NCBI GenBank assembly: GCA_965208905.1
Contig: OZ242365.1
Location: 2,016,001-2,080,000, forward strand
Source: Nitrosopumilaceae archaeon
GTDB lineage: Archaea; Thermoproteota; Nitrososphaeria; Nitrososphaerales; Nitrosopumilaceae
Direction of reading: 5' to 3'
DNA length: 64,000 nucleotides
The translations under genes and the position numbers were made by a program. The notes under the pieces are model-generated. The model was not told where the DNA came from. It did no database searches and saw only the letters and a list, made by a program, of their open reading frames with translations. Shown here piece by piece: positions 4,689 through 48,116 of the stretch (position 1 is the stretch's first letter; every line of letters begins with the position of its first letter).

Positions 4689-4696
4689 TTGTGCAA

Positions 4697-33284: not shown

Positions 33285-33285
33285 A

Positions 33286-33423
33286 CTATCCACCACCGGT
33301 TGCAGAATCAAACAGTGCACATTCACACTTGTCACGCTCTCCACAGTATGGACAGACGCATTCACACTTCTCTATTGAAAGCCCACAATTGATACAAATT
33401 GCAAATGCATCATCATCATCCAT
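33286..33423 (-). CDS. 45-aa Cys-rich miniprotein ending in GGG
   Basis: Manual translation MDDDDAFAICINCGLSIEKCECVCPYCGERDKCECALFDSATGGG (8 Cys); TATA-like TTTATA about 22 nt upstream; abuts OFOR alpha. Confidence 0.75.
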   Translation of the reverse strand: MDDDDAFAICINCGLSIEKCECVCPYCGERDKCECALFDSATGGG

Positions 33424-33468
33424 ATATCATTATGGGCATTACCGTATAAATACGATACATAATTGGGT

Positions 33469-33700
33469 GGGAATTATATACAAAAGTACAGCAGTCTTAA
33501 CCGCCTACTTTTCGTTGGCTTTCACCATTCAGGGTGCGTGTGTTTGGCATGCGCTTTGGAAGCGCGGTCTTGACTACCTGCCAGTCTCCTACAACCGGTG
33601 GTGGCGTGCGGTTGCGTAGGCTTATTCGGTCCCTCAAGTCCGTCCCGGACTTGATGCATAAACGACTTGCCTTTTGGGCGCGTCTTGAGTTTGGTTTTAT
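33469..33700 (-). ncRNA. Putative omega/reRNA scaffold of TnpB cassette 1
   Basis: Hairpins on - strand: TCAAGTCC/GGACTTGA, CCTAC..CAACCG/CGGTTGTAGG, GCGCTT/AAGCGC, TGGT-GAAA-GCCA, terminal hairpin 33481-33514. Confidence 0.55.
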
Positions 33701-34909
33701 GTAATCATAATTGTTGTTATAGTTGTTGTCTGGACTGTACATGATGTTGAATGCGCCGTTATAGTCGGCATGACATACAGTGCCGCAGTTCCGACACTTG
33801 AACTTTCTATCATGGTTCCACCTCTCATGTACAATTTCATTATTGTGCCAAATCTTGAATCCACCGTAGCGTTCGGTGTCCTTACTACAACATGCGCCAC
33901 ACCGTTTGGACGTATTGTAGGGTTTAACCTCTCTGATTTCCGTATTATGCTCAGGGGCTTTCTTTGTACACCAATCACGGACTTCACCGGCCTTACTCTC
34001 TTTTAGTGTGCGGTTCTTGCCTTTGGCGCAGTTGCCCCCCTTGCGGGTAAGATTCACCAAGTTGAGGTTCTCAAATTTTACCAAATCGCAGTCCACGCAC
34101 AGTTCCTTGCAAAAGTGTCTGTACTTATTCAACTGCCAGTTGTATAGCGTTTTGCGCTGCCGTTTCATGCTGTCATTTATCTTATTCCATCTGTTGCTGT
34201 TATGTGTACATCTGTCACGTTCGGACTGGAGTTTTCTAATGTGCTTGCCTATTTCATCATTGTACAATTTAAGAAGGCGTGTAGTACCGTCCGACAGTGC
34301 CACATATGCTGTCAACTTGCCTATGTCAACACCCGCCGTCAACCCTGTTATCTTCCTGTCCGGGATGTACTTTTGTATTGTAAGGTGTAACTCAAACTGG
34401 CGGTGACCGCGCCGTCTATCCGCATCACTCGTTATGTCAACAATCTTGTGTGACACTACGGTTTTGATGTTGGGTAGCCGCCCCTTCGTGATGCTGAACT
34501 GTGTGTCTGACTTGGGAAATGTGACCGTGTTGTGTTTGATTCGCTTTGGTGCACCAAGGAAGAATATCGGATATGTTTTACCGTCTTTGAGATGCGTACA
34601 GTCCTTCATTTCAATACCTGCCAGGATTGCACCGCGAATTAAGTGTAGTGGTGCGCATTCCTTGGGGTCGGTATTATCCCATTCTGCCATCATGCTTTTG
34701 GCAACCGTAACGCATGTCAATGCGCTTCGGGGATACGGACTAGGACTACTGCTGGCAGTGAACTGCACGTTCAAGTTACGACACATAACACCTAGTTCAA
34801 CCCACATACGGCTTTCGGCCTCCAGACTTTCAACATATGAGGTGATTATACTATTTGTCTTTAGGCGGTATTTGCGGGTTCTATAGATTATACTCTTCTT
34901 GGTCTGCAT
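33497..34909 (-). CDS. tnpB: TnpB/Cas12f-like RNA-guided RuvC nuclease (divergent N-terminus)
   Basis: RuvC-I GVDIG, RuvC-II FENLN, TSKRCGAC...FKCRNCG Zn finger, RuvC-III ADYNGAFNI; C-terminal tail overlaps structured RNA. Confidence 0.88.
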   Translation of the reverse strand: MQTKKSIIYRTRKYRLKTNSIITSYVESLEAESRMWVELGVMCRNLNVQFTASSSPSPYPRSALTCVTVAKSMMAEWDNTDPKECAPLHLIRGAILAGIEMKDCTHLKDGKTYPIFFLGAPKRIKHNTVTFPKSDTQFSITKGRLPNIKTVVSHKIVDITSDADRRRGHRQFELHLTIQKYIPDRKITGLTAGVDIGKLTAYVALSDGTTRLLKLYNDEIGKHIRKLQSERDRCTHNSNRWNKINDSMKRQRKTLYNWQLNKYRHFCKELCVDCDLVKFENLNLVNLTRKGGNCAKGKNRTLKESKAGEVRDWCTKKAPEHNTEIREVKPYNTSKRCGACCSKDTERYGGFKIWHNNEIVHERWNHDRKFKCRNCGTVCHADYNGAFNIMYSPDNNYNNNYDYIKPNSRRAQKASRLCIKSGTDLRDRISLRNRTPPPVVGDWQVVKTALPKRMPNTRTLNGESQRKVGG

Positions 34910-34979
34910 ATCACATATTATGATATTTCAGATATAAAGTTACATACCTCATATTTACTATATGATATGTATAGTACAG

Positions 34980-35107
34980 TCCCGACCACATGCCAGTCTG
35001 TCAAATTACGGCGCTGTTATACGGCATGCCAAACACACGCACCCTGAATGGCGAAAACCAACGAAAAATAGGCGGTTAAGCCTACTGTACTTTTGTAAGT
35101 AATTCCC
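34980..35107 (+). ncRNA. Putative second, outward-facing omega-RNA scaffold copy
   Basis: Diverged copy of the tnpB 3' scaffold, preceded by TATA-like TTTACTATAT near 34954-34963. Confidence 0.4.
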
Positions 35108-35156
35108 TAATTTCCCTATGAGAGATTTATTACACATTGTTTGTTTGTAAGTTACA

Positions 35157-35554
35157 TGATATTCAAAAAAAAGGAGATAAAACGACATGTTACCATAAAA
35201 AGAAAGGCCATGGACGGCATCATATCATACTGCAAAATCAATCATCCTAACGAGGCCATACTGATACTCAAGGGCAAATCTAAAAGGGGAGCGATACTAG
35301 TTGAAGATCTGGTCATTCCTCCGTTCAGTCATTCAGGCCCAACATTTGCTGGATTTCCCCACTCTTTCCTGCCTTTTGATTTGAGTTACGTGGGAACCGT
35401 TCATTCACACCCGGGAGGTTCTGCAGAACCGTCTGTCACTGATTTGAATAATTTTTTTGGTCTTGTATCGGTGATAATAAAATGGCCATACAACGACGAA
35501 GATATATTTGCATGGGATAGTAAAGGCGGTTCAATAGAGTTAACCATCGAGTAA
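35157..35554 (+). CDS. JAB/MPN (JAMM) metalloprotease
   Basis: PNEAIL...HSHPGGSAEPSVTD (E-HxH-S-D motif intact). Confidence 0.88.
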
Positions 35555-35559
35555 TGTAA

Positions 35560-35956
35560 TGCGTGCGCATCAACGCCAGCTGTTTAGCTGGCGGCGTGTA
35601 CAGGACCCGATCAGAGGCCGCCCTGGAGCAAATGGGCGGTGGATGTAATGCTGTACTGCTAGTCAAAATAGGGATGGCCAAACACAAAAAGCACCAGATG
35701 GAGAGGGCCGGGTACAACAGCAGGTGAATTGTAGAAATAGTGATATCTTTGCTTCAGAGGCTGCTGAGCGAGGCGCTCCGGGCGGTAAAGCCTGAGTGTA
35801 TAATAATGGAAATTGCTACAAAAATAGCCATGTATAATAAAACCCGGGACGTTATGCGCAAGGCCAGAGGGTGAGGCGTATGTGATACCGCCCCGGGATT
35901 CATATGGCGGCCGGACTGTCCAGATTACGTTAGGTCACAAATTATGAAACGCTGTC
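35560..35956 (+). pseudogene. IS5-family transposase C-terminal relic with right-end TIR
   Basis: RAGYNSR*IVEIVISLLQRLLSEALRAVKPECIIMEIATKIAMYNK aligns with KIGYRRRWVVEGVFSIFKRVFGEHVLALKWENIVHEIQLKVSLYNR of the IS5 at 53545; W->TGA at 35725; TIR-like TTATGAAACGCTGTC 35942-35956. Confidence 0.7.
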
Positions 35957-36018
35957 TGTGCCAATCCCAGATGTAGTTGGAGTGGACCCCGTTCTTTAGA
36001 ACCGATTTTCGCAACATT

Positions 36019-36876
36019 TTATTCACACTTTTTACCTCCTGCATATATGCTATCCCTTGAGTTCTGCCAATATTGTTCGGCGAACTCAGAAGGTGCCAAG
36101 TACTGTATAGAAGAGTGAATTCTGTTATGATTGTAATCTTCAAATGCAGCGAGTATTGTCTCTTTGGCTTCCTGAATGTTCGCAAACTCACGGGGCCAGA
36201 CGTACTCCTTTTTGAGTGTCTTGTGGAAGGATTCGATATGTCCGTTTTGTTCGGGAGTGTTGATGTAGATGTATTCAAGAGTAATTCCCAACGCTGCCAT
36301 TGATGATCTAAATTCCCGACTAGTGTATTGAGTTCCATTATCGACTCTCAAAGTCAATCCCGGTAATGTTGGATTGGAGTCGGCTACGGCATTATTTACG
36401 GCCATGATAGCCTCGTGTCGTGTGGCACGACTCTCCAATACAAATGCCAACCATTGCCTGGTAAAGACGTCGATTACATTAAAACAGTAACCCCATCCGT
36501 CTCTACCGCACCAGATGTATGACATGTCCGATTCCCAGAACTGATTTGGAGCCTTTGGTTTTGGAATCTTTTTATTGGTACGTATTATCTCACGCTTGGT
36601 ACGTGATGGTTTACTCCATCCCAGTGCTTTGAATATACGTTTTATTGCCTTGCGGTTGATGGGACGATTCAACTCTCGTGAGGCTTGGGCAGCCATACGT
36701 CTTGTCCCATATGTCGGTCTTTTAGGTGCAATCTTTTGTACAATCTCTAGTACTTCGGGGTCCGATGACACGTTTCTGGGTGTAGGAGCATAATACCATG
36801 CAGTTTTGGAGACTCCGCAAAGAGCGAGTGACCTATTGAGGCCCAACACGTCATGTATGATACGTGCGGCGTTCAT
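36019..36876 (-). CDS. IS3-family transposase OrfB
   Basis: YGTRRM, WESDMSYI, DNGTQY, PEQNGHIESFHKTLKKE. Confidence 0.92.
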   Translation of the reverse strand: MNAARIIHDVLGLNRSLALCGVSKTAWYYAPTPRNVSSDPEVLEIVQKIAPKRPTYGTRRMAAQASRELNRPINRKAIKRIFKALGWSKPSRTKREIIRTNKKIPKPKAPNQFWESDMSYIWCGRDGWGYCFNVIDVFTRQWLAFVLESRATRHEAIMAVNNAVADSNPTLPGLTLRVDNGTQYTSREFRSSMAALGITLEYIYINTPEQNGHIESFHKTLKKEYVWPREFANIQEAKETILAAFEDYNHNRIHSSIQYLAPSEFAEQYWQNSRDSIYAGGKKCE

Positions 36877-37169
36877 TCTACCTCGCCCTCCAGCGCTTTT
36901 TTTAAAGCATCATTAGCCACGGCATACTCTCCGATGATTCTCTTAAGTGATGTAATCTCCTTTTTGTGCTTCTTGGCCTGTTTGGAAGCGTTAGAACCCT
37001 CAAACGAGCTGCGTCCGCCATCTGGAAACTTTTCTTTCCAATCGTATACGGTTCGTGGGGCCAAGTTGTGTTCGCGGCATATCTCGGCCATACTGGTCCT
37101 GGGATTGAATGTCTGGAGTACTATGTGGATCTTTTCATCTGTACTCAACTTTGATTTTTTATTTGTCAT
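36873..37169 (-). CDS. IS3-family transposase OrfA (HTH)
   Basis: EKIHIVL...ICREHNLAPRTVYDWK; A7G slippery run near end and ATGA overlap with orfB. Confidence 0.88.
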   Translation of the reverse strand: MTNKKSKLSTDEKIHIVLQTFNPRTSMAEICREHNLAPRTVYDWKEKFPDGGRSSFEGSNASKQAKKHKKEITSLKRIIGEYAVANDALKKALEGEVE

Positions 37170-37330
37170 ATGGTGTGTGCCCCCCAATTGCTAAAGTGTG
37201 CATCGACGATCGGTCTTATTCTAGCGGGGTCCGCGCCAGTAGTCGTGCATCAGTAGAGTTACATGCATTTATCGTTTTTACCGTATGGTGCAGCGATACC
37301 TTATAACGGGGGATGTTTTTGGTTTAAAAC

Positions 37331-38671
37331 ATGAGACAAGTTATGAGCATACGTCAAACTTTAGATGATCAAGTCGATGATTTGAAAGGTAGTCTCTGGC
37401 GTGATTTTGTGCATACGCGCTCCCGAACACTACGACTAGTTGCGAATCTAGAGATGGATGACTTTGTGGTTCAGACAGCCACATATATGAGTCCACCAAA
37501 GTGGCACATTGGGCATGTCTCTTGGCTGTATGAGGTCATAATGAGTAGAGTGGACAAAGAGTACCAGTTTTACTCAAAAGAGTTCTCGGAATACTTGAAC
37601 TCATACTACAATCAATTCGGGGAGCCACACCAAAAAGGAAGGCGAGGAACTGTATCAAGACCCACATTAAATCAAATATTAGACTACTATATGGAGATAA
37701 ATAGTAGGGTTCAGACATTCTTGTCTGAATACGATACAGGTGATAAAGACGTAAAAAGCCTCTTTGAAATGGGCCTAAATCATGAATGTCAACACCAAGA
37801 GTTATTGGTGTATGATCTGCAACATCTGCTGGCAGATGTATATGTACCATTAAAGAAGGTAAGTCCTCCCAGAAGGGCGACTGCAACCCCCTCCATGATA
37901 CCTGTAAGGGGCGGCATGTATAGTCTGGGATATGGCGGTGATCAGTTTTGTTACGATATCGAGTTGCCTGAGCACATTACATATATGGATAATTATTCAT
38001 TGGGAAAATTTCCAGTGACCAATGCAGAGTACATGCAGTTTATGAAAGATGGCGGGTACTCGAAGTTTGAGAATTGGTTGTCAGATGGGTGGAAGGTGGT
38101 TCAAGAGAATGGATGGACCTCGCCAATGTATTGGGAAGAGATAGATGACCAATGGTGTATAGTAGACTTTAGGGGGCGGAGACCCATAAACCCCGCCGAA
38201 CCTGTAGTACACGTGAGTTTTTACGAGGCAGATGCATATGCTAGATGGGCCGGAAAGCGCTTGCCTACAGAAGCAGAATGGGAGAAGGCTGCCTGTTACG
38301 ATCCCACAAGTGATACTAAGAGCATATACCCTTGGGGAGATGAGCCTCCAGATTATACAAAGTGTAATCTGTTGGAGTCAAACATTTGGGGGTGCACCGA
38401 GATAGGCAGCTACCCAGAGGGGGTCAGTCCATACGGGTGTGAGCAGATGATTGGTGATGTTTGGGAGTGGACCTCTTCGGAATTTGTTGGATATAGGGGG
38501 TTTAAGTCTACCTTTCGCGAGTATAACGATAAGTGGTTCACTGGTCAAAAGGTGCTACGAGGAGGCTCATACGGTACCCCCTCCATGTCTATAAGGGGGA
38601 GTTACAGGAATTTCTTCAGATTAGATGAGAGATGGATGTTTGCTGGATTTCGTCTAGCCTCAGATATTTGA
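37331..38671 (+). CDS. egtB: Ergothioneine biosynthesis sulfoxide synthase
   Basis: SPPKWHIGH, HECQHQEL, FGE-like domain RLPTEAEWEKAA, GDVWEWT, FAGFRLA. Confidence 0.93.
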   Translation: MRQVMSIRQTLDDQVDDLKGSLWRDFVHTRSRTLRLVANLEMDDFVVQTATYMSPPKWHIGHVSWLYEVIMSRVDKEYQFYSKEFSEYLNSYYNQFGEPHQKGRRGTVSRPTLNQILDYYMEINSRVQTFLSEYDTGDKDVKSLFEMGLNHECQHQELLVYDLQHLLADVYVPLKKVSPPRRATATPSMIPVRGGMYSLGYGGDQFCYDIELPEHITYMDNYSLGKFPVTNAEYMQFMKDGGYSKFENWLSDGWKVVQENGWTSPMYWEEIDDQWCIVDFRGRRPINPAEPVVHVSFYEADAYARWAGKRLPTEAEWEKAACYDPTSDTKSIYPWGDEPPDYTKCNLLESNIWGCTEIGSYPEGVSPYGCEQMIGDVWEWTSSEFVGYRGFKSTFREYNDKWFTGQKVLRGGSYGTPSMSIRGSYRNFFRLDERWMFAGFRLASDI

Positions 38672-38703
38672 TAATATAGTTACATTGAAGTGATATGCAG
38701 CAT

Positions 38704-39708
38704 TTATGTGGACATTAAAGTTACTGAAAATTTTTTGGTAGCATCATGCCAAATCCGTTTAATCTTTAGATTGACACTGTCTGCCATTGTCTGTATATGT
38801 GGTATGGTATATTTTTGTGAGTTTTCAGTATGGATTAACTCGTCTTTTTTTAAATATAATGTGGTATTGGCCCCGGGTATGTCTACACTCTGATCCTTCT
38901 CGGACTTTAGATACATCTCTATTCTTTTTTCACTTTTATTGTATGGGGCGTAGTGTGAAAATTTTGAAACATTAAAATTAGCATTTAATTCACGATTAAG
39001 TCTATGTAATATATTGAGATTAAACCTGGCAGTTACTCCTTGAGTATCGTTGTATGCCGCCTCAAGCGTTGCGACATCTTTGTCCAGGTCCAGACCAAGT
39101 AATAACAGGTCGCCATCTTTCATGGATACTCGTATGGTTCTCAAAAACGAGATGGATTCAGACGCGGACATGTTTCCCAAACTCGAACCTAAAAATATGA
39201 TCAAATTGGGCGAATTAGTCATATGGCGTACTATGGATAGTCCGTGCTCATATGTATCCACAATGCCTGTTATACGCAACTTTGGATAATCATCTAGTAG
39301 GGATCCGGCACCACTCTCCAAGGCATCGGATATGTCAATTGGCACATACTCTGAACCCGCTCCCGCATCTTGCAGTGAATCTAAGACACATCGTGTCTTT
39401 ACAGATGACCCGCTGCCAAGCTCAACCAGACGAAACTGCTCATGTAAATATCTGGATAACTCGTATCGTATGGCGCGCAGAATTGCGGTCTCGGTACGAG
39501 TTTGATAATATTCGGGTAATGAACATATCTCTTCAAATAACTGTGAACCTACATGATCATAAAAGAACATTGGGGGTATGGAGCGAGGCGCATTGCGCAG
39601 TTTTTTTTGCACCGCCTCAGCTAAACTATCTTGCTTAAGGTTGTTTGCTAACCTTGTGTATCTAAAGCGCTCTGATACAATACACTGTAGGTGGTTCAAT
39701 AACACCAA
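38704..39708 (-). CDS. egtD: L-histidine N-alpha-methyltransferase
   Basis: GSQLFEEICSLPEYYQTRTE, ELGSGSSVKT, AYNDTQGVTARFNLN, HTENSQKY. Confidence 0.93.
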   Translation of the reverse strand: MVLLNHLQCIVSERFRYTRLANNLKQDSLAEAVQKKLRNAPRSIPPMFFYDHVGSQLFEEICSLPEYYQTRTETAILRAIRYELSRYLHEQFRLVELGSGSSVKTRCVLDSLQDAGAGSEYVPIDISDALESGAGSLLDDYPKLRITGIVDTYEHGLSIVRHMTNSPNLIIFLGSSLGNMSASESISFLRTIRVSMKDGDLLLLGLDLDKDVATLEAAYNDTQGVTARFNLNILHRLNRELNANFNVSKFSHYAPYNKSEKRIEMYLKSEKDQSVDIPGANTTLYLKKDELIHTENSQKYTIPHIQTMADSVNLKIKRIWHDATKKFSVTLMST

Positions 39709-40109
39709 AACAATATGAGCGCAATAAATCTCTTAAGACATAATTTTGAGCATCTAACGCAGAGACTTCTCTGATAGAGTACAAGAATTTGCATAATGGA
39801 CCTCGTCCCAGAAAAATTATTAAAAAATATCTGTCTGGCCAAACTCAATCTGATGACAGTTACAAGTTTGACTATGTATGAGGTATAACTTTCCGCACTA
39901 TAACCCAGATGGTGACATGTGAGGCATTTTACATTTGAGTACCCATATGCAAGAACCAAAAATATTCGCCAAATGTGATTCTAATTTTTAGGCAGATACA
40001 AATATTATCTGCTAATTTTGATTAATTTTTAAAGTATTTTAGAGATTCTTTGATCTTGCCAAAAAAAATCAACTTAAATAATTATAAACAAAAGATTTCG
40101 AGTTATTTT

Positions 40110-41264
40110 TTACTCGTAATAGTCTGGACCTATGAGAAACGTTACCAAAACCGTCGCAGATAAATCCTCATCAGGCGTAAATATTGGAGTGGCAATTGAG
40201 GCAAATGCATCAAAGAGGTTGGCAGATATGCGTTCTAGTGGGGCTCCAGAACTGGGATCGACCGTAACATCTTCAACTCCAATTATAGTATGCTGCAATG
40301 GTTTCAACGCAAGATATGCTTGATGTTTGGCGTTTAATACCGCAGTCTCTATTAAACTTTCTTGAATCCTAATTTTGGTATCATCAGACACTGTAAATTG
40401 AACAGACTCTACATTGTTAACACCTGCCTGCACAGCCGTATCCAATATGGCAGCAGTCATATTAATTTGGTCGGTATTTACCATTATGATGTTACGTACA
40501 TTATATCCGGCAAAGGTTTGCCTGTGTTGGCCATCAACATCATAGTGGGTGTCATACTCTGGATGGATGGTGATACGTGATGTGGCAATGTCATCAATTG
40601 GTATACCCAAAGATACAACAGAGTTTACTGCCATGTCTAGCAATTCGGAATTCTCGGCTAAAGCTGCACTGGCAGTAGGCCTGACAGTCTCAACTCCCAT
40701 GGTTATTACGACCCTTTCAGGTTCTACACTGGCTGTTGCCGTGCCAGCCACTGTTATTGTACCGGGCGTAGCATGACCTCCCATGAACGGCATGTCGAAC
40801 ATCATCATATCATAACCGCTCATGAACGGCATGTCGAACATCATCATGTGATCTTTCATGAATGACATCATACCATAGCAGTCTTTGTGCTCGTAGTCTC
40901 CATGCTCGTAGTCTCCATGCTCGTAGTCTCCATGCTCGTAGTCTCCATGCTCGTAGTCTCCATGCTCGTAGTCTCCATCGTCGGTGCGGTTGTAGTTATC
41001 ATACGAATAGTCGGACATTCTGTTCTTGTCTTTATACCCGTACTCTCCAAAGTTATGGTGATATTCAAAACAGTCCTTGAACATCTTGTGCATATTATCA
41101 AATTCGTAATCTTCTGACTCTTCATAAGAGTCATGTTTTTTTGTTTCAGAGTAGTTGTAAGAGTCAACATATCCGGGAAATGCCATTGCAGAGCCAGTGG
41201 CTGCACCAAGTAATACGGCAAGTCCAGTTGTCAATAGAAACGTGGTCAAAAGCAAATTATTCAT
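40110..41264 (-). CDS. Secreted SIMPL (DUF541) domain protein with His/Met/acidic repeat N-terminus
   Basis: Signal peptide from ATG 41264; TITVAGTATASVEPE...GVNNVESVQF SIMPL core. Confidence 0.82.
   Translation of the reverse strand: MNNLLLTTFLLTTGLAVLLGAATGSAMAFPGYVDSYNYSETKKHDSYEESEDYEFDNMHKMFKDCFEYHHNFGEYGYKDKNRMSDYSYDNYNRTDDGDYEHGDYEHGDYEHGDYEHGDYEHGDYEHKDCYGMMSFMKDHMMMFDMPFMSGYDMMMFDMPFMGGHATPGTITVAGTATASVEPERVVITMGVETVRPTASAALAENSELLDMAVNSVVSLGIPIDDIATSRITIHPEYDTHYDVDGQHRQTFAGYNVRNIIMVNTDQINMTAAILDTAVQAGVNNVESVQFTVSDDTKIRIQESLIETAVLNAKHQAYLALKPLQHTIIGVEDVTVDPSSGAPLERISANLFDAFASIATPIFTPDEDLSATVLVTFLIGPDYYE
40888..40977. repeat. Perfect 15-bp tandem repeat x6 (TGCTCGTAGTCTCCA; encodes GDYEH x6)
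   Basis: Counted directly; also a duplicated 27-bp CATGAACGGCATGTCGAACATCATCAT at 40782 and 40821 (MMMFDMPFM x2). Confidence 0.95.
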
Positions 41265-41399
41265 TGTATAATTATGTTTCAGGCCGCAATTATATCTTGT
41301 GTGTGTGAACGTTACATGAAAAAATATCATGCCTGTAGATACTCATATGCACTTTTAATACACAGTCTGGCCAAATACTCTAGTTTAATCTGATGGGCG

Positions 41400-42263
41400 C
41401 TATGGATTTGTAGGGATTGTGATAAATGGAGTAGCGCCTTCACCCACCACTAGTGGCAGCTTACCATCCCATGCTTGTGTCTTTAGCCACTCCAAATAGT
41501 TTGGATTTTGCGCCAAAGCATCATTTATAATTCGGATTGCTTCTGCTTCACCGTTAGCTTTTGCAATATTTGCACTGGCCTCACCCTGAGCTTGTTGTTC
41601 TATCTGACGTGCCTCTACCTCTATACGAATTAAGTCATTTTCAGCCTTTAGCGCTTTTTGTTCAGCTTCTACTTTTGCTTCTATGGCAGCTGCAAAGAGG
41701 TTAGAGAATTGAAAGTCGGTTATGGATATGACCTCTGTAATTATGTTAAAGTCGTTAAGACGATTTGTAATTTCACGTTCGATGTCGGACTTTACATCTG
41801 GCCGTTTAGTGATGAGTTCTTCAGCATTATAGTTGGCAGTAACTTGTTTGACTACCTCCTCTACTGCAGGTTGTATTATACGATCCTCATAATCTAGTCC
41901 CACGGATTGATATAGTCTATGTACGCTGTTTGGTGCAGGGTGATAGTTAACAGTCACTGTAGTGGAGACAGTTTGGAGGTCTTTTGATGCAGATGTAGTG
42001 GACTTTACATATTTCAAAGTTCTAATCTCCATCTGTACGACACTATCCGCAAACGGCGTTACAAAATGCAACCCCTCATCTAATGGCGGTACTGTGGTAT
42101 CTACGGCGTTCCAGTGTAACAACACACCTCTATGTCCAGCATCAACTATTTGAACAGCAGAGTAAGCTACAACACCTATGACCAACAAAGCTATGATCCC
42201 AATGGCCACACCGCGTGCAGCTCCACGATTTACAGAGACACCAGGCGATTGATACCGTGACAT
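41400..42263 (-). CDS. Prohibitin-like SPFH protein
   Basis: VDAGHRGV, EGLHF, SKDLQTV, AEELITKR, FAAAIEAKVEAEQ. Confidence 0.92.
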   Translation of the reverse strand: MSRYQSPGVSVNRGAARGVAIGIIALLVIGVVAYSAVQIVDAGHRGVLLHWNAVDTTVPPLDEGLHFVTPFADSVVQMEIRTLKYVKSTTSASKDLQTVSTTVTVNYHPAPNSVHRLYQSVGLDYEDRIIQPAVEEVVKQVTANYNAEELITKRPDVKSDIEREITNRLNDFNIITEVISITDFQFSNLFAAAIEAKVEAEQKALKAENDLIRIEVEARQIEQQAQGEASANIAKANGEAEAIRIINDALAQNPNYLEWLKTQAWDGKLPLVVGEGATPFITIPTNP

Positions 42264-42713
42264 GCAATATATTATACATTACTATTATAAATATGCTTAA
42301 ATTTCAAATCTTCAAAAAGTGCATTATAGATATCAACAAATCGATAAAATTTCAACCAAAAAAGTACACGATTATACAGATCATATAATCTATTGCAAGT
42401 GTTTTTTGAGAATCTGATAATACGACACATATGAATTCACATGGAGCTAAACAGATTGCATCCATAAAATCGAGTGATTATCTCAACCCATCTAAACTGT
42501 ACAGCGCGGACAACTAGAACCGACATATACAAAAAGTTTTGACCAATCTAAAAGTCCATTGTGTGTGATACAATTTCGTACTACCCATACAAGATTGCTA
42601 GAACAGCTGGGCGGACAGACTATCTTACAGATAGTGATGTATAATCATCCAAATCTGTTTGGGAGGAGTCTGGCTTAACCATACCTTTTTAATTCCGCAT
42701 CATACACTAGCGA

Positions 42714-43703
42714 TTGTTGAATAGTCTGGATGATTTTGACAAGGACCTGTTAAACGAGATACAGCAACAATTTCCTTTGGATGTACGCCCGTATCACAAA
42801 CTAGCATCCGTATTAAACGCCAAGCCTGAACTTGTTATGAGTCGCATTAAGGCGCTTAAAGAGTCTGGAATAATACGACAGCTAAGCGCCATATTTGACA
42901 CACGAAAACTAGGATACAAGAGTTCATTGGTAGCCATGGAAGTGGACCCAGACAGACTTGTAGAGGTTGCCGACACCATAAACCGCCACCCCGGTGTCAG
43001 TCACAATTATGAACGAAACCACAAGCTCAACTTATGGTTTACTATAGCCGTCCCCCCAAAACAGAGCATACAGGATGAAGTGAATCGCTTCTCTAAACTA
43101 GAGGGTGTCAAAGCAACACGCATGCTACCCACACTGCGTATGTTCAAGATTGGCGTAAAATTAGATATGAATGAGAAAAAGAAACGAGAGGTAAGACCAT
43201 CTGAGATAAAAAAAGAGATACGACAGGAACCATTTAGAGGTACTGAAGAGGATAAAGTGTTCATCAGAGAGTTACAGAAGGACCTGCCAGTTATCGAACG
43301 ACCATTCTTGGAGATGGCAGAGAATCTTAAAATGTCTGAAGACGATGTATTCTCACAGCTAAAAAATTATGAAGAGATAGGCGTAATGCGGCGCTATGCT
43401 GCCATACTGCGCCATCGTGATGCGGGATTTTTAGCTAACGGCATGATTGTATGGGAGGTACCAGATGAACTTATAGAAGATATAGGAGCGCAATTAGGCT
43501 CATTTCCCCAGGTTAGTCATTGTTATCAGCGTCCCGCATATCCAGATTGGCCATATACAGTATTCTCTATGATACACTGTCGTACACGGGACGAGGCCTC
43601 AGATATAGCAAGAATAATACAGTCTCATATCGGCATAAAACAGTATCGCATACTGTTCAGCGAACGCGAATTTAAAAAGAGTCGCGTAGAATACTTTGTA
43701 TAA
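42714..43703 (+). CDS. Siroheme decarboxylase AhbA-AhbB fusion (NirDL-like, AsnC fold)
   Basis: Two repeats: PGVSHNYER.H.LNLWFT and PQVSHCYQRP...WPYTVFSMIH...EFKK; near heme genes. Confidence 0.85.
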   Translation: MLNSLDDFDKDLLNEIQQQFPLDVRPYHKLASVLNAKPELVMSRIKALKESGIIRQLSAIFDTRKLGYKSSLVAMEVDPDRLVEVADTINRHPGVSHNYERNHKLNLWFTIAVPPKQSIQDEVNRFSKLEGVKATRMLPTLRMFKIGVKLDMNEKKKREVRPSEIKKEIRQEPFRGTEEDKVFIRELQKDLPVIERPFLEMAENLKMSEDDVFSQLKNYEEIGVMRRYAAILRHRDAGFLANGMIVWEVPDELIEDIGAQLGSFPQVSHCYQRPAYPDWPYTVFSMIHCRTRDEASDIARIIQSHIGIKQYRILFSEREFKKSRVEYFV

Positions 43704-43706
43704 CGC

Positions 43707-44699
43707 TCAAGCTATGGATGACTTTAATTTGTATGATGGCCAACTTGAATATATCTGTGATATCTCCGCCATGTCACTCTGCGATAGATATTTACCGTCG
43801 GATATCTCCGAGAACGTCTCGATCTCCGTTGAATCCACGACTGTGGGTAATACGGCGCCCACTGCATTCTGAGACAGTATAAATTTGATGGCCAACTCGG
43901 TTATGTTCCATCCATTTTCATCGGCGATGGGGCGTAACTGTTCTACTTTTTTTAGGGCAGCCATACGCCATTCGATTTTACGATCACGTCGATGATCATT
44001 CTTGGGTATCTTTGTGTCGGCAGTTATTTTACCAGTTAGTATTCCCGACGCATCTGGAACTCGAACTAGAATGCTTGAGCCCCTCTTCTCAGCCTCAGAT
44101 AAAAGTTCATTTCCTGGAGTCTGCTCCAGTATATTGTATACGGTCTGTATGGCACCAACATTTTTGTTCACCATGGCAGCCATTCCTTCATCCAGCCATC
44201 CTATGGCTGGCCCCAATGCAACTTGTAGCGTCTGTATGGTACCATCATGTATGAGTTTACTCAAGTAGTTGAATGGTTCATCACCACATATGTGATTCAT
44301 CTTGGGATTGTGTAATCCATACATCTCTATTCTGTCTGTCCGTAGTCTCTCCAAAGAGGACCTGAGAGCCTTTTTGGTAAACTCCACATCAAACCGTTGT
44401 GGTAACTCTGCATGCCCAATCTGCTCAACGCTGGAAAAATAATATCCGTATTTGGTGGATATTACAACATCATCCCGTACGCCCTCCAGAGCCTCGCCTA
44501 ACAACCTCTCACTCTTTCCTTTCCCATACATGTCGGCCGTCTCAAAGAAGTTTATTCCACAGTCGTATGCTTTTTTAATCATTCTTTTTGCTTCTGACTC
44601 GTCTATCTTTTTACCCCACCAATCCAGAGCAATAGTCCAGGCACCAAACCCTATCTCTGATATCTGTATGTCAGTGTTACCCAATCGCCTATATTTCAT
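43707..44699 (-). CDS. Aldo/keto reductase
   Basis: RRLGNT..ISEIGFG, FFETADMYG.G.SE, SLERLRTD. Confidence 0.92.
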   Translation of the reverse strand: MKYRRLGNTDIQISEIGFGAWTIALDWWGKKIDESEAKRMIKKAYDCGINFFETADMYGKGKSERLLGEALEGVRDDVVISTKYGYYFSSVEQIGHAELPQRFDVEFTKKALRSSLERLRTDRIEMYGLHNPKMNHICGDEPFNYLSKLIHDGTIQTLQVALGPAIGWLDEGMAAMVNKNVGAIQTVYNILEQTPGNELLSEAEKRGSSILVRVPDASGILTGKITADTKIPKNDHRRDRKIEWRMAALKKVEQLRPIADENGWNITELAIKFILSQNAVGAVLPTVVDSTEIETFSEISDGKYLSQSDMAEISQIYSSWPSYKLKSSIA

Positions 44700-45229
44700 G
44701 ATACTATACTCTGAAACCTATCCAGTTGCAGTTTTATTTGTTTATCATTTAGTACGGGCTGGCCACCATCACATGTAGTATCCGAGTCCAGCCAGGATTT
44801 ACACCCAGAGTACTCGCTTAGTATTGGTATGGTTATTGGGTCAATCTTGAACACCTTCAAAAAGACTGCCCTCATTGGCCTTTGAGGTTGCCATGCGTGT
44901 CGGCTCATAATATACTCTCTACTCCAGATATGAAAATCCTCTAATTGTTCTATTGTATCATCCGAGTCGACATCACATTCGTATAGTACCTGGGCATATG
45001 AGGTTATTGTATTCATATCTGGTGGCGGCCTCTTACGTTGCATATGATACAAGAATGGTTTCCTTATGTTTTGTTCAGTCTGATGCTCCCATGTGGGGTA
45101 TAGTAAAAATTTATGGGATTCAAGCAGAAAACCAGAAGCCGTCTCCATTATGCCACCTTTGCGCAGTATGGCCAACTGCTCTCCGGCCTCCAAGGCACCT
45201 ACCACAGTGGACCACTCTTTGAGCATCAT
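44696..45229 (-). CDS. DUF1802-family protein
   Basis: LKEW...LRKGGI...FLLYPTWEHQ...GCKSW. Confidence 0.85.
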   Translation of the reverse strand: MMLKEWSTVVGALEAGEQLAILRKGGIMETASGFLLESHKFLLYPTWEHQTEQNIRKPFLYHMQRKRPPPDMNTITSYAQVLYECDVDSDDTIEQLEDFHIWSREYIMSRHAWQPQRPMRAVFLKVFKIDPITIPILSEYSGCKSWLDSDTTCDGGQPVLNDKQIKLQLDRFQSIVS

Positions 45230-45236
45230 TGTACCA

Positions 45237-45905
45237 TCATCCTAAACTTTCCACCAGGGGAACAATATCCTGTTTAACACATACCATCATGGGTGTGTCT
45301 GACTGTACATATTTAGAGATTGCAGTTGCGCGTAAATCCATGATCAGATCCTGAAAATCAGACAGATCATCTGTCTCGAATGCCAGCATAAAGTCTTGAT
45401 CATCAAGCCCAAATGAGTATGTGGTGTTCAAGATAATGTCTGGATGTCTTCTACTAACTGCTATGTGCTCGTTCATCATGTGTTGTCTTGACTCTGATGG
45501 CAGTAGATACCACTCTCTGGTCTTTGTAAACGGATATACTACAGCATACTTTTTTGGAGTGGCATCAGTCAGAAATGACACTGTAGTGTTTCCACTACTA
45601 TATATCGACTGTCTAGTACAAGAGAGATAGTTTCGGGATGGTTCTATGTACTTCCCAAATACAGTCGAAAATAGTCTTGTGGGGACTTTTTGCAGATCCG
45701 TAACAGATTTTGCACCCACCCACAGTAAAAGATCAGACTCGGCTCTAATTCCCAGTGTGGAGTATGCCCTATACCTGACACCAGAAAGTTTCAATGCTTG
45801 TTCCACTTCTTTGGCCGATTCAGATTTTCCCATGTCGGCTATCCATCTCCATTTGGGATCTACATGATAAAACATAAATCCAAAATAATACCTTTCATCG
45901 GTCAT
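45237..45905 (-). CDS. Chlorite dismutase / coproheme decarboxylase-like protein
   Basis: YPFTKTREWYLL...MMNEH...TYSFGLDDQDF. Confidence 0.88.
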   Translation of the reverse strand: MTDERYYFGFMFYHVDPKWRWIADMGKSESAKEVEQALKLSGVRYRAYSTLGIRAESDLLLWVGAKSVTDLQKVPTRLFSTVFGKYIEPSRNYLSCTRQSIYSSGNTTVSFLTDATPKKYAVVYPFTKTREWYLLPSESRQHMMNEHIAVSRRHPDIILNTTYSFGLDDQDFMLAFETDDLSDFQDLIMDLRATAISKYVQSDTPMMVCVKQDIVPLVESLG

Positions 45906-45942
45906 ACTTTTTAGCAGTCAATTTGGGTGATATATGTGATTA

Positions 45943-46064
45943 TGGCTTTGAGAAACAAGCCGGCCTTTTGTGGCTTGGTATGTTACATGGCCATCTGCCT
46001 GGACAAGATAGATGCCGAACTAGGTGGTACGATCCCACCCTAGATGTCACCATGACAAAGACCA
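45943..46064 (+). ncRNA. Candidate structured RNA (multi-branch)
   Basis: TGGCTTTG/CAAAGACCA closure; CAAGCCG/TGGCTTG; CATGG/CCATG; CATCTG.CT/AG.TAGATG; CTAGGTGG/CCACC.TAG. Confidence 0.45.
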
Positions 46065-46128
46065 GATTCGTAACTGCCAAATTCATATGAAAATCGTGAC
46101 TCTCATAGCATCATTTTGATTTCGCATA

Positions 46129-46428
46129 CTAATTGTCAGTGTGGCGCTCACGTAGAGCATCATACATCTCCAAAAATTGATCCGGATCCGTCTGCCTATA
46201 CATCTTTTCAAGCGTGCGTACCTTCTGCTCTGATATCTTTTCGCCGCGAATAATCTCATGAAACTCACGTATTATCTGTGCAGGCGTCTTGTTGATATCA
46301 TAGCTGCTCAGTATACGATTTACCGAACTTTTGCACATGGCATCATATATGACATAGCGATACAGCAGATATCCGCCCAGACCAGCAGCGGCTGCCAAAA
46401 TTATTGGTATGATGAATGCGGTCGCCAT
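46129..46428 (-). CDS. Hypothetical membrane-anchored protein
   Basis: N-terminal TM, 99 aa. Confidence 0.75.
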   Translation of the reverse strand: MATAFIIPIILAAAAGLGGYLLYRYVIYDAMCKSSVNRILSSYDINKTPAQIIREFHEIIRGEKISEQKVRTLEKMYRQTDPDQFLEMYDALRERHTDN

Positions 46429-46554
46429 TATACACTTGAAAACACTCTCGATATTTCATTGTTGTCTATAATTTGTCGGGAATTATATACCTGGGTAGAC
46501 AAGGCTAGTTCTGGAGGGTACATGTTTATAAAGTATTATGATGTATAAAACTAC

Positions 46555-47892
46555 ATGTATCGATCTTATGGCTTCCGCGTAAACCTGACGCGCTCTCAGG
46601 CGCGTCACATATCCAAAATACGGGACTCACAGCGGTTCGTGTACAACTGGGCCGTGGAGCGGCTGCTTACTAACCCCACACTCACTACATATGACCTCTC
46701 CAGAGAGTTCACCAAGGTGAGGCGTTCCGTATCGTGGCTGCAAACAGTGGAGCGCATATACCAAAATACGGCCATCCATCAGGCCCGCACTGCTGCGGAT
46801 GTCTCGAACAAATACGGCAACGGCGAGCTGAGTTTCCGCGCCAGAAAGCGCGATAATAAAAAGGCAGTATCATGTGATGTACAGCCGCGATTTGTGGACA
46901 ACAGGCACGCGTCATTGCCGGGCCTTGGTGTTGTTGAGTTGCCTGAGGAGCAGCCATATCAATTTCCACACAACTGGCTGTATGGCTCAAGGTCTTTCCA
47001 TTTGGTGCAGGTTACACCAAAGTCGTGGGGGCACGTCAAGTCATGTGACCATATCTATCGGCTGCACATAACATATGACGTACCAGTACCCGAACGGCGC
47101 GCCAAGACCGGTGTTGTTGCCGGCATAGACAGGGGGATAACAAATCCAACGGTTGTCTGTAAGACAGACCACAACACTTCGTGTATAATATCGTATGACA
47201 CGGCAACCGCATTCCGCACGAACCGTACATGGAATGATGGTGTGCGCCGTACCATATCACACCACAACAAGCATTCTCATACAACACACAAGATGAAACG
47301 CAAACGAGAAAAGTACAATCGTGGTAATGCGAATGACCGCGAGTATGCGGAGTGGCTTCTAGCCAAGAAGATATGCGAGGGCGTGGATGTAATATATGTC
47401 GAACAGCTCAACCTTGAGGCCATGAGCAGGCGCGGTGGTAGGCACAAGAAAGGTCTGAACAGGGGAATGAGGTTTATTCGGCATTATGCAATATTGCGAA
47501 AGATCCGCACCATCGCAGAGCGGCTGGGCATCCGTGTAGTAGAGGTAAGTCCAAAGCACACAAGCCAGGAGTGCAGTGTGTGCGGCTACACAAACAAGGA
47601 GAACCGAGACGGGGAGACATTCAAGTGTCTCAAATGTGACCACGTGGCAAACGCCGACGGCAATGCGTCGGTGAATATGATTCAACGGGGGACCGGTATG
47701 AAGGTTCCCGCGGGGGAAGGAATGGCCCTCGAAAGGCGTGAAATGGGCCGGACCCGGAAGCCACCTGTTTGTGCAGTTCCGGACGCCAGACGGCGGCGTG
47801 AGAATCAAGCGTGCAATCGACCCAAAACATCAAGCGTCATGAAGCACCTGGGAATGTACGCGTATGTTACGCGTGCATACCCAGGTATATAA
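46555..47892 (+). CDS. tnpB: TnpB RNA-guided RuvC nuclease
   Basis: IS605-OrfB-like N-terminus (SYGFRV..T..Q...RFVYNWA), GIDRG, VEQLN, TSQECSVCG...FKCLKC, NADGNASVN; TTTATAAA at 46527-46534. Confidence 0.92.
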   Translation: MYRSYGFRVNLTRSQARHISKIRDSQRFVYNWAVERLLTNPTLTTYDLSREFTKVRRSVSWLQTVERIYQNTAIHQARTAADVSNKYGNGELSFRARKRDNKKAVSCDVQPRFVDNRHASLPGLGVVELPEEQPYQFPHNWLYGSRSFHLVQVTPKSWGHVKSCDHIYRLHITYDVPVPERRAKTGVVAGIDRGITNPTVVCKTDHNTSCIISYDTATAFRTNRTWNDGVRRTISHHNKHSHTTHKMKRKREKYNRGNANDREYAEWLLAKKICEGVDVIYVEQLNLEAMSRRGGRHKKGLNRGMRFIRHYAILRKIRTIAERLGIRVVEVSPKHTSQECSVCGYTNKENRDGETFKCLKCDHVANADGNASVNMIQRGTGMKVPAGEGMALERREMGRTRKPPVCAVPDARRRRENQACNRPKTSSVMKHLGMYAYVTRAYPGI

Positions 47893-47897
47893 TTCCC
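47688..47897 (+). ncRNA. Putative omega/reRNA scaffold of TnpB cassette 2
   Basis: GGGACC/GGTTCC, GGCCC/GGGCC and CCGGAA/TTCCGG stems; long terminal hairpin 47846-47886 overlapping the TIR. Confidence 0.6.
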
Positions 47898-48116
47898 AAT
47901 TTGTCTGACTTGACTCTGTCCTACACGCACAAGTCATGGGAAAACGTATTGTACCACCCTAAAAATGAGTTTGTAATGTGTCTTGGTTAATACATTTGAT
48001 AATTTGGCGCTCAAAGCATATGAGCAGCAGAGCGTACAAGATTGTGGCCTGCAGGTATTGGGATTATAGCATTGCAGATACACATGGAAAAACCAAACCT
48101 CTGTATCAATATATAA

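What the first reader, a model, noticed from the sequence alone, without database searches (positions are those of the whole stretch)
33469..47897. Two dissimilar TnpBs share the same 13-bp terminus GGGAATTATATAC
Seen: the 470-aa and 445-aa proteins show no evident similarity outside the RuvC/Zn motifs and have different RNA scaffolds. Yet three of four ends begin GGGAATTATATAC and the fourth GGGAATTACTTAC. None of the transposases in this window (IS481, IS3, IS5) has these ends. Inference: repeated capture, or old diversification, of tnpB under one trans-acting transposase. That points to a family-level system rather than an accident.
Basis: partly seen in the sequence, partly recalled or inferred. 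Interest (0 to 1): 0.8.

Follow-up and report, generated by a model that had tools for sequence, protein, structure and literature searches.

The report
TnpB genes riding IS1595-type transposons
Two unrelated-looking TnpB (RNA-guided nuclease) genes in this sponge-associated ammonia-oxidising archaeon each sit inside a small transposon whose ends match those of an IS1595-family transposase encoded elsewhere in the genome, so they are probably moved by a different transposase from the one that usually moves TnpB.

Summary
Window 33469-35107 and 46478-47897 are TnpB-only elements of 1639 and 1420 bp that end in GGGAATTA(T/C)(A/T)TAC. The proteins are 25% identical, over the RuvC/zinc half only.

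Four intact IS1595-family DDE transposase genes sit in elements with the same termini and 8-bp target duplications. The genome has 74 TnpB reading frames and no Y1 or serine TnpA.

Element 2 is a true insertion. A sister genome has the empty site with one copy of AATTTGTC. Element 1 lacks a duplication because it sits at a rearrangement breakpoint.

The same 13-mer flanks at least four deep TnpB lineages, IS1595 transposases and small TnpB-less elements in 8 of 9 other genomes of the genus and in one other genus. In one relative, TnpB plus IS1595 transposase moved as one unit. An AU test rejects a single origin of the IS1595-ended TnpBs.

An unplanned result: in three lineages, including element 1's, the base just 5' of the left duplication is G in 39 of 42 copies, on that side only. 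This looks like a TAM.

DDE-linked TnpBs with inverted ends, moved in trans, are in print (Altae-Tran 2023). I did not find IS1595 named as the partner.

The parts
33469..35107 (-). Element 1: 1639-bp non-autonomous TnpB element with IS1595-type ends. It has no intact target duplication.
   Evidence: Ends. A 100%-alike twin lies at C1:1455264-1456902. In sister genome G005 its two flanks map about 545 kb apart. Its upstream flank GGAAATTA equals the twin's downstream flank.
33497..34909 (-). tnpB, 470 aa (P0001, family c6). The RuvC D/E/D positions align with those of P0002.
   Evidence: The stop codon and last 23 codons lie inside the right inverted-repeat arm.
33469..33568 (.). Right-end (tnpB-3'-proximal) inverted-repeat arm of element 1. 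Its terminal 13 nt are GGGAATTATATAC.
   Evidence: 100 nt, 86% complementary.
35008..35107 (.). Left-end inverted-repeat arm of element 1. Its terminal 13 nt are GGGAATTACTTAC.
33469..33708 (-). Putative omegaRNA scaffold of element 1. It overlaps the tnpB 3' end and runs to the element end. This is inferred.
   Evidence: Folds at -67.9 kcal/mol, z = -2.1. Assigned by analogy with element 2. Not tested by covariation.
46478..47897 (+). Element 2: 1420-bp non-autonomous TnpB element with IS1595-type ends.
   Evidence: A 100%-alike copy lies at C1:352058-353477 and a 92%-alike copy at 553922-555339. G005 has the empty site.
46555..47892 (+). tnpB, 445 aa (P0002, family c4). D192, E283 and D368 are invariant among four relatives, and RuvC-III reads NADGN.
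   Evidence: The TAA stop at 47890-47892 lies inside the right repeat.
46478..46497 (.). Left 20-nt terminal inverted repeat of element 2.
47878..47897 (.). Right 20-nt terminal inverted repeat of element 2.
46470..46477 (.). Left copy of the 8-bp target-site duplication AATTTGTC.
   Evidence: G005 has a single copy.
47898..47905 (.). Right copy of the 8-bp target-site duplication AATTTGTC. It would also be the first bases of the predicted guide (inferred).
47680..47897 (+). Putative omegaRNA scaffold of element 2.
   Evidence: The last 220 nt or so are 70-88% identical to nine relatives, against 57-73% over the rest of the reading frame. RNAalifold gives -68.3 kcal/mol with 59 pairs, 4 of them with compensatory changes, and leaves the terminal 12 nt unpaired.

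Best explanation
Both loci are non-autonomous transposons. Each carries a tnpB gene, and probably its overlapping guide RNA, between the terminal inverted repeats of an IS1595-family (ISNwi1-like) insertion sequence. They have no transposase of their own. They are moved by the zinc-ribbon DDE transposase of autonomous IS1595 copies elsewhere in the chromosome. That transposase recognises the shared terminal GGGAATTATA(TAC) and makes 8-bp target duplications.

In this lineage several distantly related TnpB modules have come to lie between these ends. No IS200/IS605 or IS607 TnpA is found in this genome.

Inferred part: the guide RNA ends at the right repeat, so its guide is the duplicated 8 bp plus the right flank. 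The unoccupied site (TAM + 8 bp + right flank) would then be the nuclease's target. This gives the element a way to be restored or to home after loss. For the lineage that includes element 1, the TAM would end in G.
For: SHOWN
(1) Identical ends on autonomous elements. C1:1043578-1046414 and C1:1770047-1772736 carry 319-320-aa proteins with DDE_Tnp_IS1595 at 139.6 and 138.2 bits, plus a zinc ribbon at 25.2 and 24.8 bits, just under its 25.4-bit cut-off. Two further copies have ends GGGAATTATAGTG and identical 316-aa transposases.
(2) 8-bp duplications. In G000, family c0 has 11 of 15 complete copies perfect, and c4 has 3 of 5. Of 20 repeat pairs fetched from five relatives, 17 are perfect. Of 11 complete c4-like pairs in named Nitrosopumilaceae MAGs, 10 are perfect.
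(3) Empty site. The flanks of element 2 overlap by exactly the 8 bp AATTTGTC in G005.
(4) Physical linkage. In G001 a c4-like tnpB (57% identical) and an IS1595 transposase lie between one outer pair of ends flanked by CCGGTATC, while the inner IS1595 unit has no duplication of its own.
(5) No alternative transposase. Y1_Tnp is over cut-off in 0 of 41 genomes, and Resolvase gives 0 hits in G000, which is 99.6% complete in one contig.
(6) Co-occurrence. The 13-mer, IS1595 transposases and TnpB expansions are found together in the genus and in G015. The 13-mer and the transposase are missing from the other 30 genomes sampled, apart from one 13-mer hit in G038.

INFERRED
(7) Guide RNA. The 3' part of the element is conserved beyond what the protein needs and is structured. 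The tnpB stop lies 5 or 28 bp from the end.
(8) TAM. In tnpB orientation, the base 5' of the left duplication is G in 39 of 42 copies: c0-like 18 of 21, c6-like 7 of 7, G015 lineage 14 of 14. The mirrored position on the right is C in only 4 of 20. Elements without TnpB show G on 5 of 18 sides.
Against: No transposition or nuclease assay exists. Recognition of the 13-mer by the transposase is inferred from shared ends and duplications.

Element 1 has no target duplication. This is explained by rearrangement but not proven for that copy.

The c4 family, to which element 2 belongs, shows no flank motif (G in 5 of 18), so the TAM reading does not cover it.

The metatranscriptome evidence is only assembled contigs at 90-99% likeness that stop at or within 2 nt of the right end. 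They cannot show an RNA 3' end, and they may come from DNA in the library.

Compensatory changes are few: 4 of 59 pairs.

G002 has TnpBs with these ends but no IS1595 hit at E<=1e-20; it is fragmented into 160 contigs.
Confidence: 0.85

Rival explanations
1. Nesting, not capture. Ordinary IS1341-type (IS200/IS605) TnpB elements once inserted into IS1595-derived miniature elements, so the inverted repeats belong to a host element and have nothing to do with TnpB.
For: Nested insertions do occur here. One example is a small element with its own duplication GAATAAGT inside a c6-like element in G005. Another is a tnpB split by an inserted reading frame (L052).
Against: The tnpB stop codon and the conserved structured 3' region run into the terminal repeat itself, so there is no room for an inner IS605 right end. 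The same geometry, with the stop 5 to 28 bp from the end, recurs in every copy of c0, c4 and c6. No Y1 transposase was found in 41 genomes.
Confidence: 0.04
2. The shared 13-mer is kept because the nuclease or its RNA needs it as the 3' end of the scaffold, not because a transposase binds it. The elements would then be moved by something else or not at all.
For: The 13-mer would be the last part of the RNA before the guide in all three families.
Against: The same 13-mer, inverted, forms the far end of each element. It also forms both ends of elements that carry no tnpB: the IS1595 transposase elements, those with a methylase passenger, and small elements. Copies lie at many sites with different 8-bp duplications, and an empty site exists.
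Confidence: 0.04
3. The G before the left duplication reflects target choice by the transposase, not a TAM.
For: The duplications are AT-rich in elements with and without TnpB, so the transposase does have target preferences.
Against: The G is on one side only, defined by tnpB orientation, although the terminal 24 nt of the two ends of c0 are nearly identical. It is absent from c4 elements with the same termini (5 of 18) and from TnpB-less elements (5 of 18 sides). Other TnpB families with other ends show other one-sided motifs: TA in 10 of 10 for c1, and TT in 6 of 7 for c3.
Confidence: 0.3
4. One old capture followed by diversification. A single ancestral TnpB entered IS1595 ends and all present lineages descend from it.
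For: All IS1595-ended TnpBs fall in the larger of the two halves of the tree. The label needs only 2 changes, against a shuffled mean of 11.6.
Against: Family c6 is sister (100*) to c2 and c8, which have other ends. An AU test rejects holding the 24 IS1595-ended rows together (lnL 59 lower, p 1e-7). The group was defined by end type beforehand, but the test was run after the tree was seen. c0 and c6 share a 22-nt end although their proteins are only 29% identical.
Confidence: 0.3

Closest known systems
DDE-transposase-associated TnpB branches (DDE-1 to DDE-6) of Altae-Tran et al. 2023, PNAS (PMC10691335; passages read). The review PMC13565253 names the partners as ISL2, IS630 and IS1031 (passages read).
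   Same: TnpB lies between inverted terminal repeats. The tnpB 3' end is within 250 bp of the element end. Solo TnpBs have ends like those of transposase-bearing copies, which suggests movement in trans.
   Different: The partner here is an IS1595-family transposase. 'IS1595' occurs 0 times in the main text of the PNAS paper. In the review I searched for the DDE partners, not for that word, and it names only ISL2, IS630 and IS1031. Supplements could not be seen. Here the 8-bp duplication is of variable sequence, so it cannot itself be the TAM. Several deep TnpB lineages share one 13-nt terminus. The host is an archaeal sponge symbiont with no Y1 or serine TnpA.
IS1595 family, ISNwi1 group with passenger genes (ISfinder classification; the end consensus ggnnatTAT, the 8-bp duplication and the size range are recalled, not from a call).
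   Same: A zinc-ribbon plus DDE_Tnp_IS1595 transposase of 316-320 aa, ends GGGAATTAT, 8-bp duplications, and copies with passenger genes (here an N6/N4 methylase-HNH).
   Different: The window elements carry no transposase. TnpB as cargo of this family was not found in the papers searched.
IS200/IS605 group IS1341 (TnpB-only elements) and ISDra2-type TnpB-omegaRNA
   Same: The same protein family. The RNA scaffold probably overlaps the 3' end of the gene, with the guide in the flank and a short conserved motif 5' of the site.
   Different: IS605 elements have no inverted repeats and no duplications, and they depend on Y1 TnpA (review passage). Here both repeats and duplications are present, and Y1 is not found.
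Fanzor in eukaryotic DDE transposons
   Same: A TnpB homologue carried as cargo in diverse cut-and-paste transposons with inverted repeats and duplications.
   Different: In Fanzors the 5' duplication (TA, TTAA) is read as part of the TAM and the 3' copy lies in the scaffold (review passage). Here the conserved base lies outside a variable 8-bp duplication.

Membership tests
IS1595 family (non-autonomous derivative) | Terminal inverted repeats identical to those of a copy that encodes a DDE_Tnp_IS1595 transposase | tested here: met
   13 of 13 terminal nt are shared with C1:1770047-1772736 and with the right end of C1:1043578-1046414. 10 nt are shared with C1:675271-677401.
IS1595 family (non-autonomous derivative) | 8-bp target-site duplication | tested here: met
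   Element 2 has AATTTGTC on both sides, and G005 has a single copy. Element 1 does not meet this (2-3 of 8 match), which is explained by rearrangement.
IS1595 family (non-autonomous derivative) | Encodes its own IS1595 transposase | tested here: not met
   tnpB is the only long reading frame with a family assignment in each window element (other listed frames overlap it and were not scanned), and there is no PF12762 hit in the window. The elements are therefore non-autonomous.
IS200/IS605 (IS1341 group) | TnpB protein (OrfB_IS605 plus zinc-ribbon TNB domain) | tested here: met
   OrfB_IS605 is below cut-off for P0001 (23.1 against 30.5 bits) and above it for P0002.
IS200/IS605 (IS1341 group) | No terminal inverted repeats and no target duplication | tested here: not met
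   Repeats of 20 and 100 nt and 8-bp duplications are present.
IS200/IS605 (IS1341 group) | A Y1 (HUH) TnpA available in the genome | tested here: not met
   PF01797 gives 0 hits in G000 and is over cut-off in 0 of 41 genomes.
IS607 | Serine recombinase TnpA | tested here: not met
   PF00239 gives 0 hits in G000. Not searched in relatives.
OMEGA (TnpB-omegaRNA nuclease) | Intact RuvC D-E-D triad | tested here: met
   D192, E283 and D368 are invariant in alignment A1. The P0001 counterparts align. The assignment of motifs to RuvC-I, II and III is from my knowledge of the family.
OMEGA (TnpB-omegaRNA nuclease) | Structured RNA overlapping the tnpB 3' end, with the guide from the flank | tested here: inconclusive
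   Conservation and a consensus fold support it. There is no Rfam match. RNA contigs are uninformative on ends.
OMEGA (TnpB-omegaRNA nuclease) | A TAM next to the target | tested here: inconclusive
   A one-sided G in 39 of 42 copies for the c0, c6 and G015 lineages. No motif for c4.
DDE-associated TnpB branches (Altae-Tran 2023) | Placement within branches DDE-1 to DDE-6 of the published tree | not testable with these tools
   The reference sequences and Additional Files 10-11 are in supplements, which are closed.

The most novel reading that the evidence does not exclude
In these archaea TnpB has switched from single-strand (Y1) transposons to cut-and-paste DDE transposons with random 8-bp duplications, and it has kept its selfish function by a new geometry. 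The guide is read from the duplication plus the right flank, and the TAM lies just outside the left duplication. Only insertions that happen to land next to a TAM (ending in G for the c0, c6 and G015 lineages; TA or TTG for families with other ends) can cut their own empty site and be restored. This would explain why nearly all surviving copies carry the one-sided motif. It would be the first prokaryotic case where survival after insertion, rather than the transposase's target choice, couples the TAM to the element.
Probability: 0.4. Interest if true: 0.85.

Novelty: new variant of a known kind. Interest (0 to 1): 0.68.

Why it matters
TnpB is the ancestor of Cas12, and it is thought to pay its way by re-installing IS605/IS607 elements after scarless excision. 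A 2026 review of the OMEGA system (PMC13565253) treats DDE partners in prokaryotes as rare and asks whether the system helps such transposons at all.

This genome gives a natural test bed. It has 74 TnpB reading frames, and most of those examined (every family but c2) lie between matching terminal motifs, many with 8-bp duplications. Four or more deep lineages share one IS1595 terminus, and no Y1 or serine TnpA is found. A one-sided flank signal can be tested directly as a TAM.

The system parallels the way Fanzors ride eukaryotic DDE transposons. It also offers compact archaeal TnpBs with predictable guide positions. Finally, it shows these elements sitting at a breakpoint of genome rearrangement in a sponge symbiont.

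Tried and rejected
Rfam scan of window 33000-48500 at E<=1 gave only a chance miRNA hit.

Sequencing runs: the stretch is held by sponge and marine metagenomes. Two sponge metatranscriptomes, X18 and X20, were laid together with two DNA runs. RNA contigs cover parts of tnpB and its 3' region at 90-99% likeness. One continues into the variant right end and stops 2 nt beyond it. Contigs cannot show RNA ends or strand, and DNA carry-over is possible, so this says nothing firm about expression. No joint skipping the element (an empty allele) was seen in X5 or X6. Contigs there bridge the left junction, so the insertion is present in those samples.

Empty-site search for a c0 copy (L044) in five relatives: G005 lacks the element but also about 96 and 65 bp of the flanks, so it is not a clean empty site.

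Metagenome scan with a c0 alignment gave only 6 weak hits (34-40% identity over 50-76 aa) and no new copies.

The idea that the GGTTCC-type ends belong to an IS6-like transposase rested on my recall of the IS26 repeat. The 13 PF13610 hits over cut-off (of 14) do not carry these ends. The TnpB-less GGTTCC element C1:926302-927837 has no Pfam match in five reading frames. That transposase remains unidentified.

The second AU test, on the GGTTCC group, did not finish in time.

No broad phylogeny with Cas12f, Fanzor or reference TnpBs was built. I used no outside reference sequences, and the search of protein representatives and the search for homologous proteins were not run. The nearest solved structures are Cas12f/Cas14 and TnpB entries, matched over the RuvC/TNB part only.

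A casposase partner was considered. No search for Cas1 was made, and the IS1595 result made it unnecessary.

Papers. Searches for TnpB + IS1595 (9 papers, listing only, none on this topic), TnpB + Thaumarchaeota (1 irrelevant), ISNwi1 (2 irrelevant), TnpB + IS630 + IS1031 + ISL2, TnpB + DDE transposase + TAM + TSD, TnpB + inverted repeats + duplication + archaea, and sponge + Thaumarchaeota + transposase + IS605 found no description of IS1595-ended TnpB elements. Supplements of PMC10691335 (Additional Files 10-11) may list the DDE partners and could not be read.

Full report
WHAT IS THERE

Window 33469-35107 (element 1) and 46478-47897 (element 2) each hold one long reading frame on the scale of the whole element. 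Both proteins are TnpB: Cas12f1-like_TNB at 54.5 and 64.2 bits, plus OrfB_IS605. They are 25% identical over 226 residues, and the match covers the RuvC/zinc-ribbon half only.

The repeats are longer than noted. Element 1 has 100-nt arms that are 86% complementary, and element 2 has a perfect 20-nt repeat. In both elements the tnpB stop codon lies inside the right repeat, 28 and 5 bp from the element end.

IS IT MORE THAN CHANCE?

Within the window alone the count at up to 2 mismatches is not significant: 5 against 2.18 expected, and 7 of 100 shuffles reach 5. The window lies in a single-contig genome of 2.21 Mb. There the 13-mer occurs 77 times at up to 1 mismatch, against once for the reversed control. 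It occurs 40 times exactly, against 0.

THE TRANSPOSASE

A Pfam search of the genome found four strong DDE_Tnp_IS1595 hits, all outside the window.
- Two lie in elements of 2837 and 2690 bp that start and end with the same 13-mer. Each carries a DNA methylase-HNH passenger, split into two reading frames in the 2690-bp copy.
- Two lie in identical-transposase copies of 2131 bp with ends GGGAATTATAGTG and perfect 8-bp duplications.

The proteins have the IS1595 zinc ribbon (25.2 bits against a cut-off of 25.4) and the DDE domain (139.6 bits). The genome gives no Y1 transposase hit and no serine recombinase hit. It nevertheless holds 74 TnpB reading frames in about nine families.

MOBILITY

Three TnpB families carry the IS1595-type ends in every copy: c0 (16 copies), c4 (8 copies, including element 2) and c6 (3 copies, including element 1). 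The stop codon lies 5, 5 or 14, and 28 bp from the right end respectively, except one c6 copy with about 13 bp.

Perfect 8-bp duplications flank:
- 11 of 15 complete c0 copies and 3 of 5 complete c4 copies;
- 17 of 20 repeat pairs fetched from five related genomes;
- 10 of 11 complete c4-like pairs in public Nitrosopumilaceae MAGs.

For element 2, sister genome G005 has the unoccupied site. The two flanks, 98% and 94% identical, overlap by exactly AATTTGTC.

Element 1 has no duplication. In G005 its flanks lie about 545 kb apart. Its upstream 8 bp equal the downstream 8 bp of its twin at C1:1455264-1456902. It therefore marks a rearrangement between copies.

LINKAGE OF TnpB AND TRANSPOSASE

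In G001 a c4-like tnpB and an IS1595 transposase gene lie between one outer pair of ends flanked by CCGGTATC. The inner IS1595 unit has matching ends of its own but no duplication. The 2562-bp composite therefore moved as a unit. In G006 a TnpB element abuts an IS1595 copy with 6 bp between them.

DISTRIBUTION

The exact 13-mer is present in 8 of 9 other genomes of the genus and in one other genus (G015) of the 24 family genomes sampled. Among the 16 genomes sampled from other families of the order it appears once.

IS1595 transposases at E<=1e-20 occur in 8 of 9 other genomes of the genus (not the same eight that hold the 13-mer) plus G015, and in 0 of the 30 others. TnpB counts of 7-51 occur in eight of the nine other genomes of the genus and in G015. 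G004 has IS1595 but no TnpB, and G002 has TnpBs and the 13-mer but no IS1595 hit. Six genomes outside that set have 1-7 TnpBs. Y1 transposase is over cut-off in 0 of 41 genomes.

G015 carries a further lineage of large TnpBs (450-728 aa, most over 540). The same ends and duplications were confirmed for 12 of the 14 copies fetched. c6-like copies in G005 (77-81% identical) also have them. Record titles place genus members in Nitrosopumilaceae/Thaumarchaeota. The runs that hold the stretch are mostly sponge metagenomes.

CAPTURE OR DIVERSIFICATION?

I built a 38-row tree of TnpBs from this genome and its relatives. The rows were chosen as 1-4 full-length members per family plus 15 from relatives; truncated copies were left out. 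The IS1595-ended proteins fall in four deep lineages. c6 is sister to c2 and c8, which have other ends (100*).

The end-type label needs 2 changes. A tree that holds the 24 IS1595-ended rows together is rejected (p-AU 1e-7). The group was defined by end type beforehand, but the test was run after I had seen the tree. c0 and c6 share 22 nt of end sequence although their proteins are 29% identical.

At least one exchange of ends or modules therefore happened. The tree has no outgroup, so direction and number are open.

A GUIDE RNA?

The last 220 nt or so of c4 elements are 70-88% identical to relatives, against 57-73% across the rest of the gene. The consensus fold has 59 pairs, 4 of them with compensatory changes, and leaves the terminal 12 nt of the repeat unpaired. 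Single-sequence folds have z-scores of -2.1 and -2.4.

This fits an omegaRNA that ends at the right repeat and reads its guide from the flank. It is not shown directly.

A ONE-SIDED FLANK SIGNAL

I oriented every element by tnpB and looked at the base just 5' of the left duplication.
- c0-like copies: G in 18 of 21.
- c6-like copies: G in 7 of 7, including element 1.
- G015-lineage copies: G in 14 of 14. Eight of the 42 were fetched afterwards as a replication, and all 8 carry G.
- The 3 exceptions: two have disrupted duplications and one has a perfect one.
- Mirror position on the right: C in 4 of 20.
- c4-like copies: G in 5 of 18.
- Elements with the same ends but no TnpB: G on 5 of 18 sides.

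Families with other ends show other one-sided motifs: TA in 10 of 10 for c1, and TT in 6 of 7 for c3. The two ends of c0 are nearly identical over 24 nt, so a transposase bound to the ends has nothing obvious to orient by. The tnpB-RNA module does.

The simplest reading is a TAM. The empty site (TAM, 8 bp, right flank) would match a guide that starts at the duplication. Why nearly all copies lie next to it is inferred: copies that can cut their own empty site are restored or spread, and the others are lost.

WHAT IS KNOWN

Altae-Tran et al. 2023 (passages read) describe six DDE-associated TnpB branches with inverted repeats and tnpB near an end, and solo TnpBs with the same ends that are probably moved in trans. 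A 2026 review (passages read) names ISL2, IS630 and IS1031 as partners. It calls such associations rare in prokaryotes and explains that in Fanzors the 5' duplication is read as part of the TAM.

'IS1595' is not in the main text of the PNAS paper, and the review names only ISL2, IS630 and IS1031 as partners. Seven literature searches found no description of it. Supplements were closed.

VERDICT

The kind (TnpB carried by DDE transposons) is known. The following appear new:
- the IS1595 partner;
- the sharing of one terminus by several deep TnpB lineages;
- the absence of any detectable Y1 or serine TnpA in this genome;
- the flank signal outside a variable duplication.

Noticed in passing
G000:C1, e.g. 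239554-241169 and 1677879-1679392; 15-mer hits (up to 3 mismatches) also at about window 14216 and 16873: A second end type, GGTTCCTCCCGCAA(A/G)G, flanks two unrelated TnpB families: c1 (15 copies) and c3 (10 copies). Perfect 8-bp duplications flank 7 of 10 and 4 of 7 complete copies. One-sided 5' motifs are TA (10 of 10) and TT (6 of 7). The transposase for these ends was not identified.
   Followed up: partly
window 4377-4712 (C1:2020377-2020712), and C1:63119-64595, 1561190-1562635: A third end type, TAGAGTTTATGCGTAAT, flanks TnpB families c5 and c8 and a 336-bp TnpB-less element inside the window. A fourth type, GGGTGTGTCCCACAGG, flanks family c7. Family c2 (12 copies) has long inverted repeats of yet other sequence.
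   Followed up: partly
G000:C1:924780-927837 (L054): A c3 TnpB element and a 1536-bp TnpB-less element with the same GGTTCC ends lie 8 bp apart. Together they are flanked by the 8-bp TTAAACTC, as if they moved as a composite or were rearranged.
   Followed up: partly
window 33469-35107 compared with G005:C1:626440-627308 and 81801-82664: Element 1 marks a synteny breakpoint between two genomes of the genus. These elements appear to act as substrates for chromosome rearrangement.
   Followed up: partly
G000:C1:1043578-1046414 and 1770047-1772736 (L045, L046): Autonomous IS1595 copies carry an N6/N4 DNA methylase fused to an HNH nuclease as passenger. In the second copy it is split into two reading frames.
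   Followed up: partly
G000 c0 copies, e.g. C1:34570-34582: A conserved internal GGGAATTACAAAC lies 398 bp from the right end, inside tnpB and facing the right repeat, in most c0 copies. It might serve as an alternative left end for a small RNA-only derivative. None of the small elements checked matches that segment.
   Followed up: partly
G000:C1:2089312-2089952: A 641-bp internal-deletion derivative of a c0 element: 533 bp of the left part joined to 123 bp of the right part. It still has G before the left duplication.
   Followed up: yes
G004 (same genus): This genome has three IS1595 transposase hits but no TnpB hit and no exact 13-mer. It would be a natural control lineage.
   Followed up: no
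c4-like elements in G009/OZ220738 (L029-L043): Target duplications of c4-like elements are often GC-rich (for example GCGCCAGA and ACGGCGGC). Those of c0, c6 and TnpB-less elements are AT-rich. This is unexplained.
   Followed up: no
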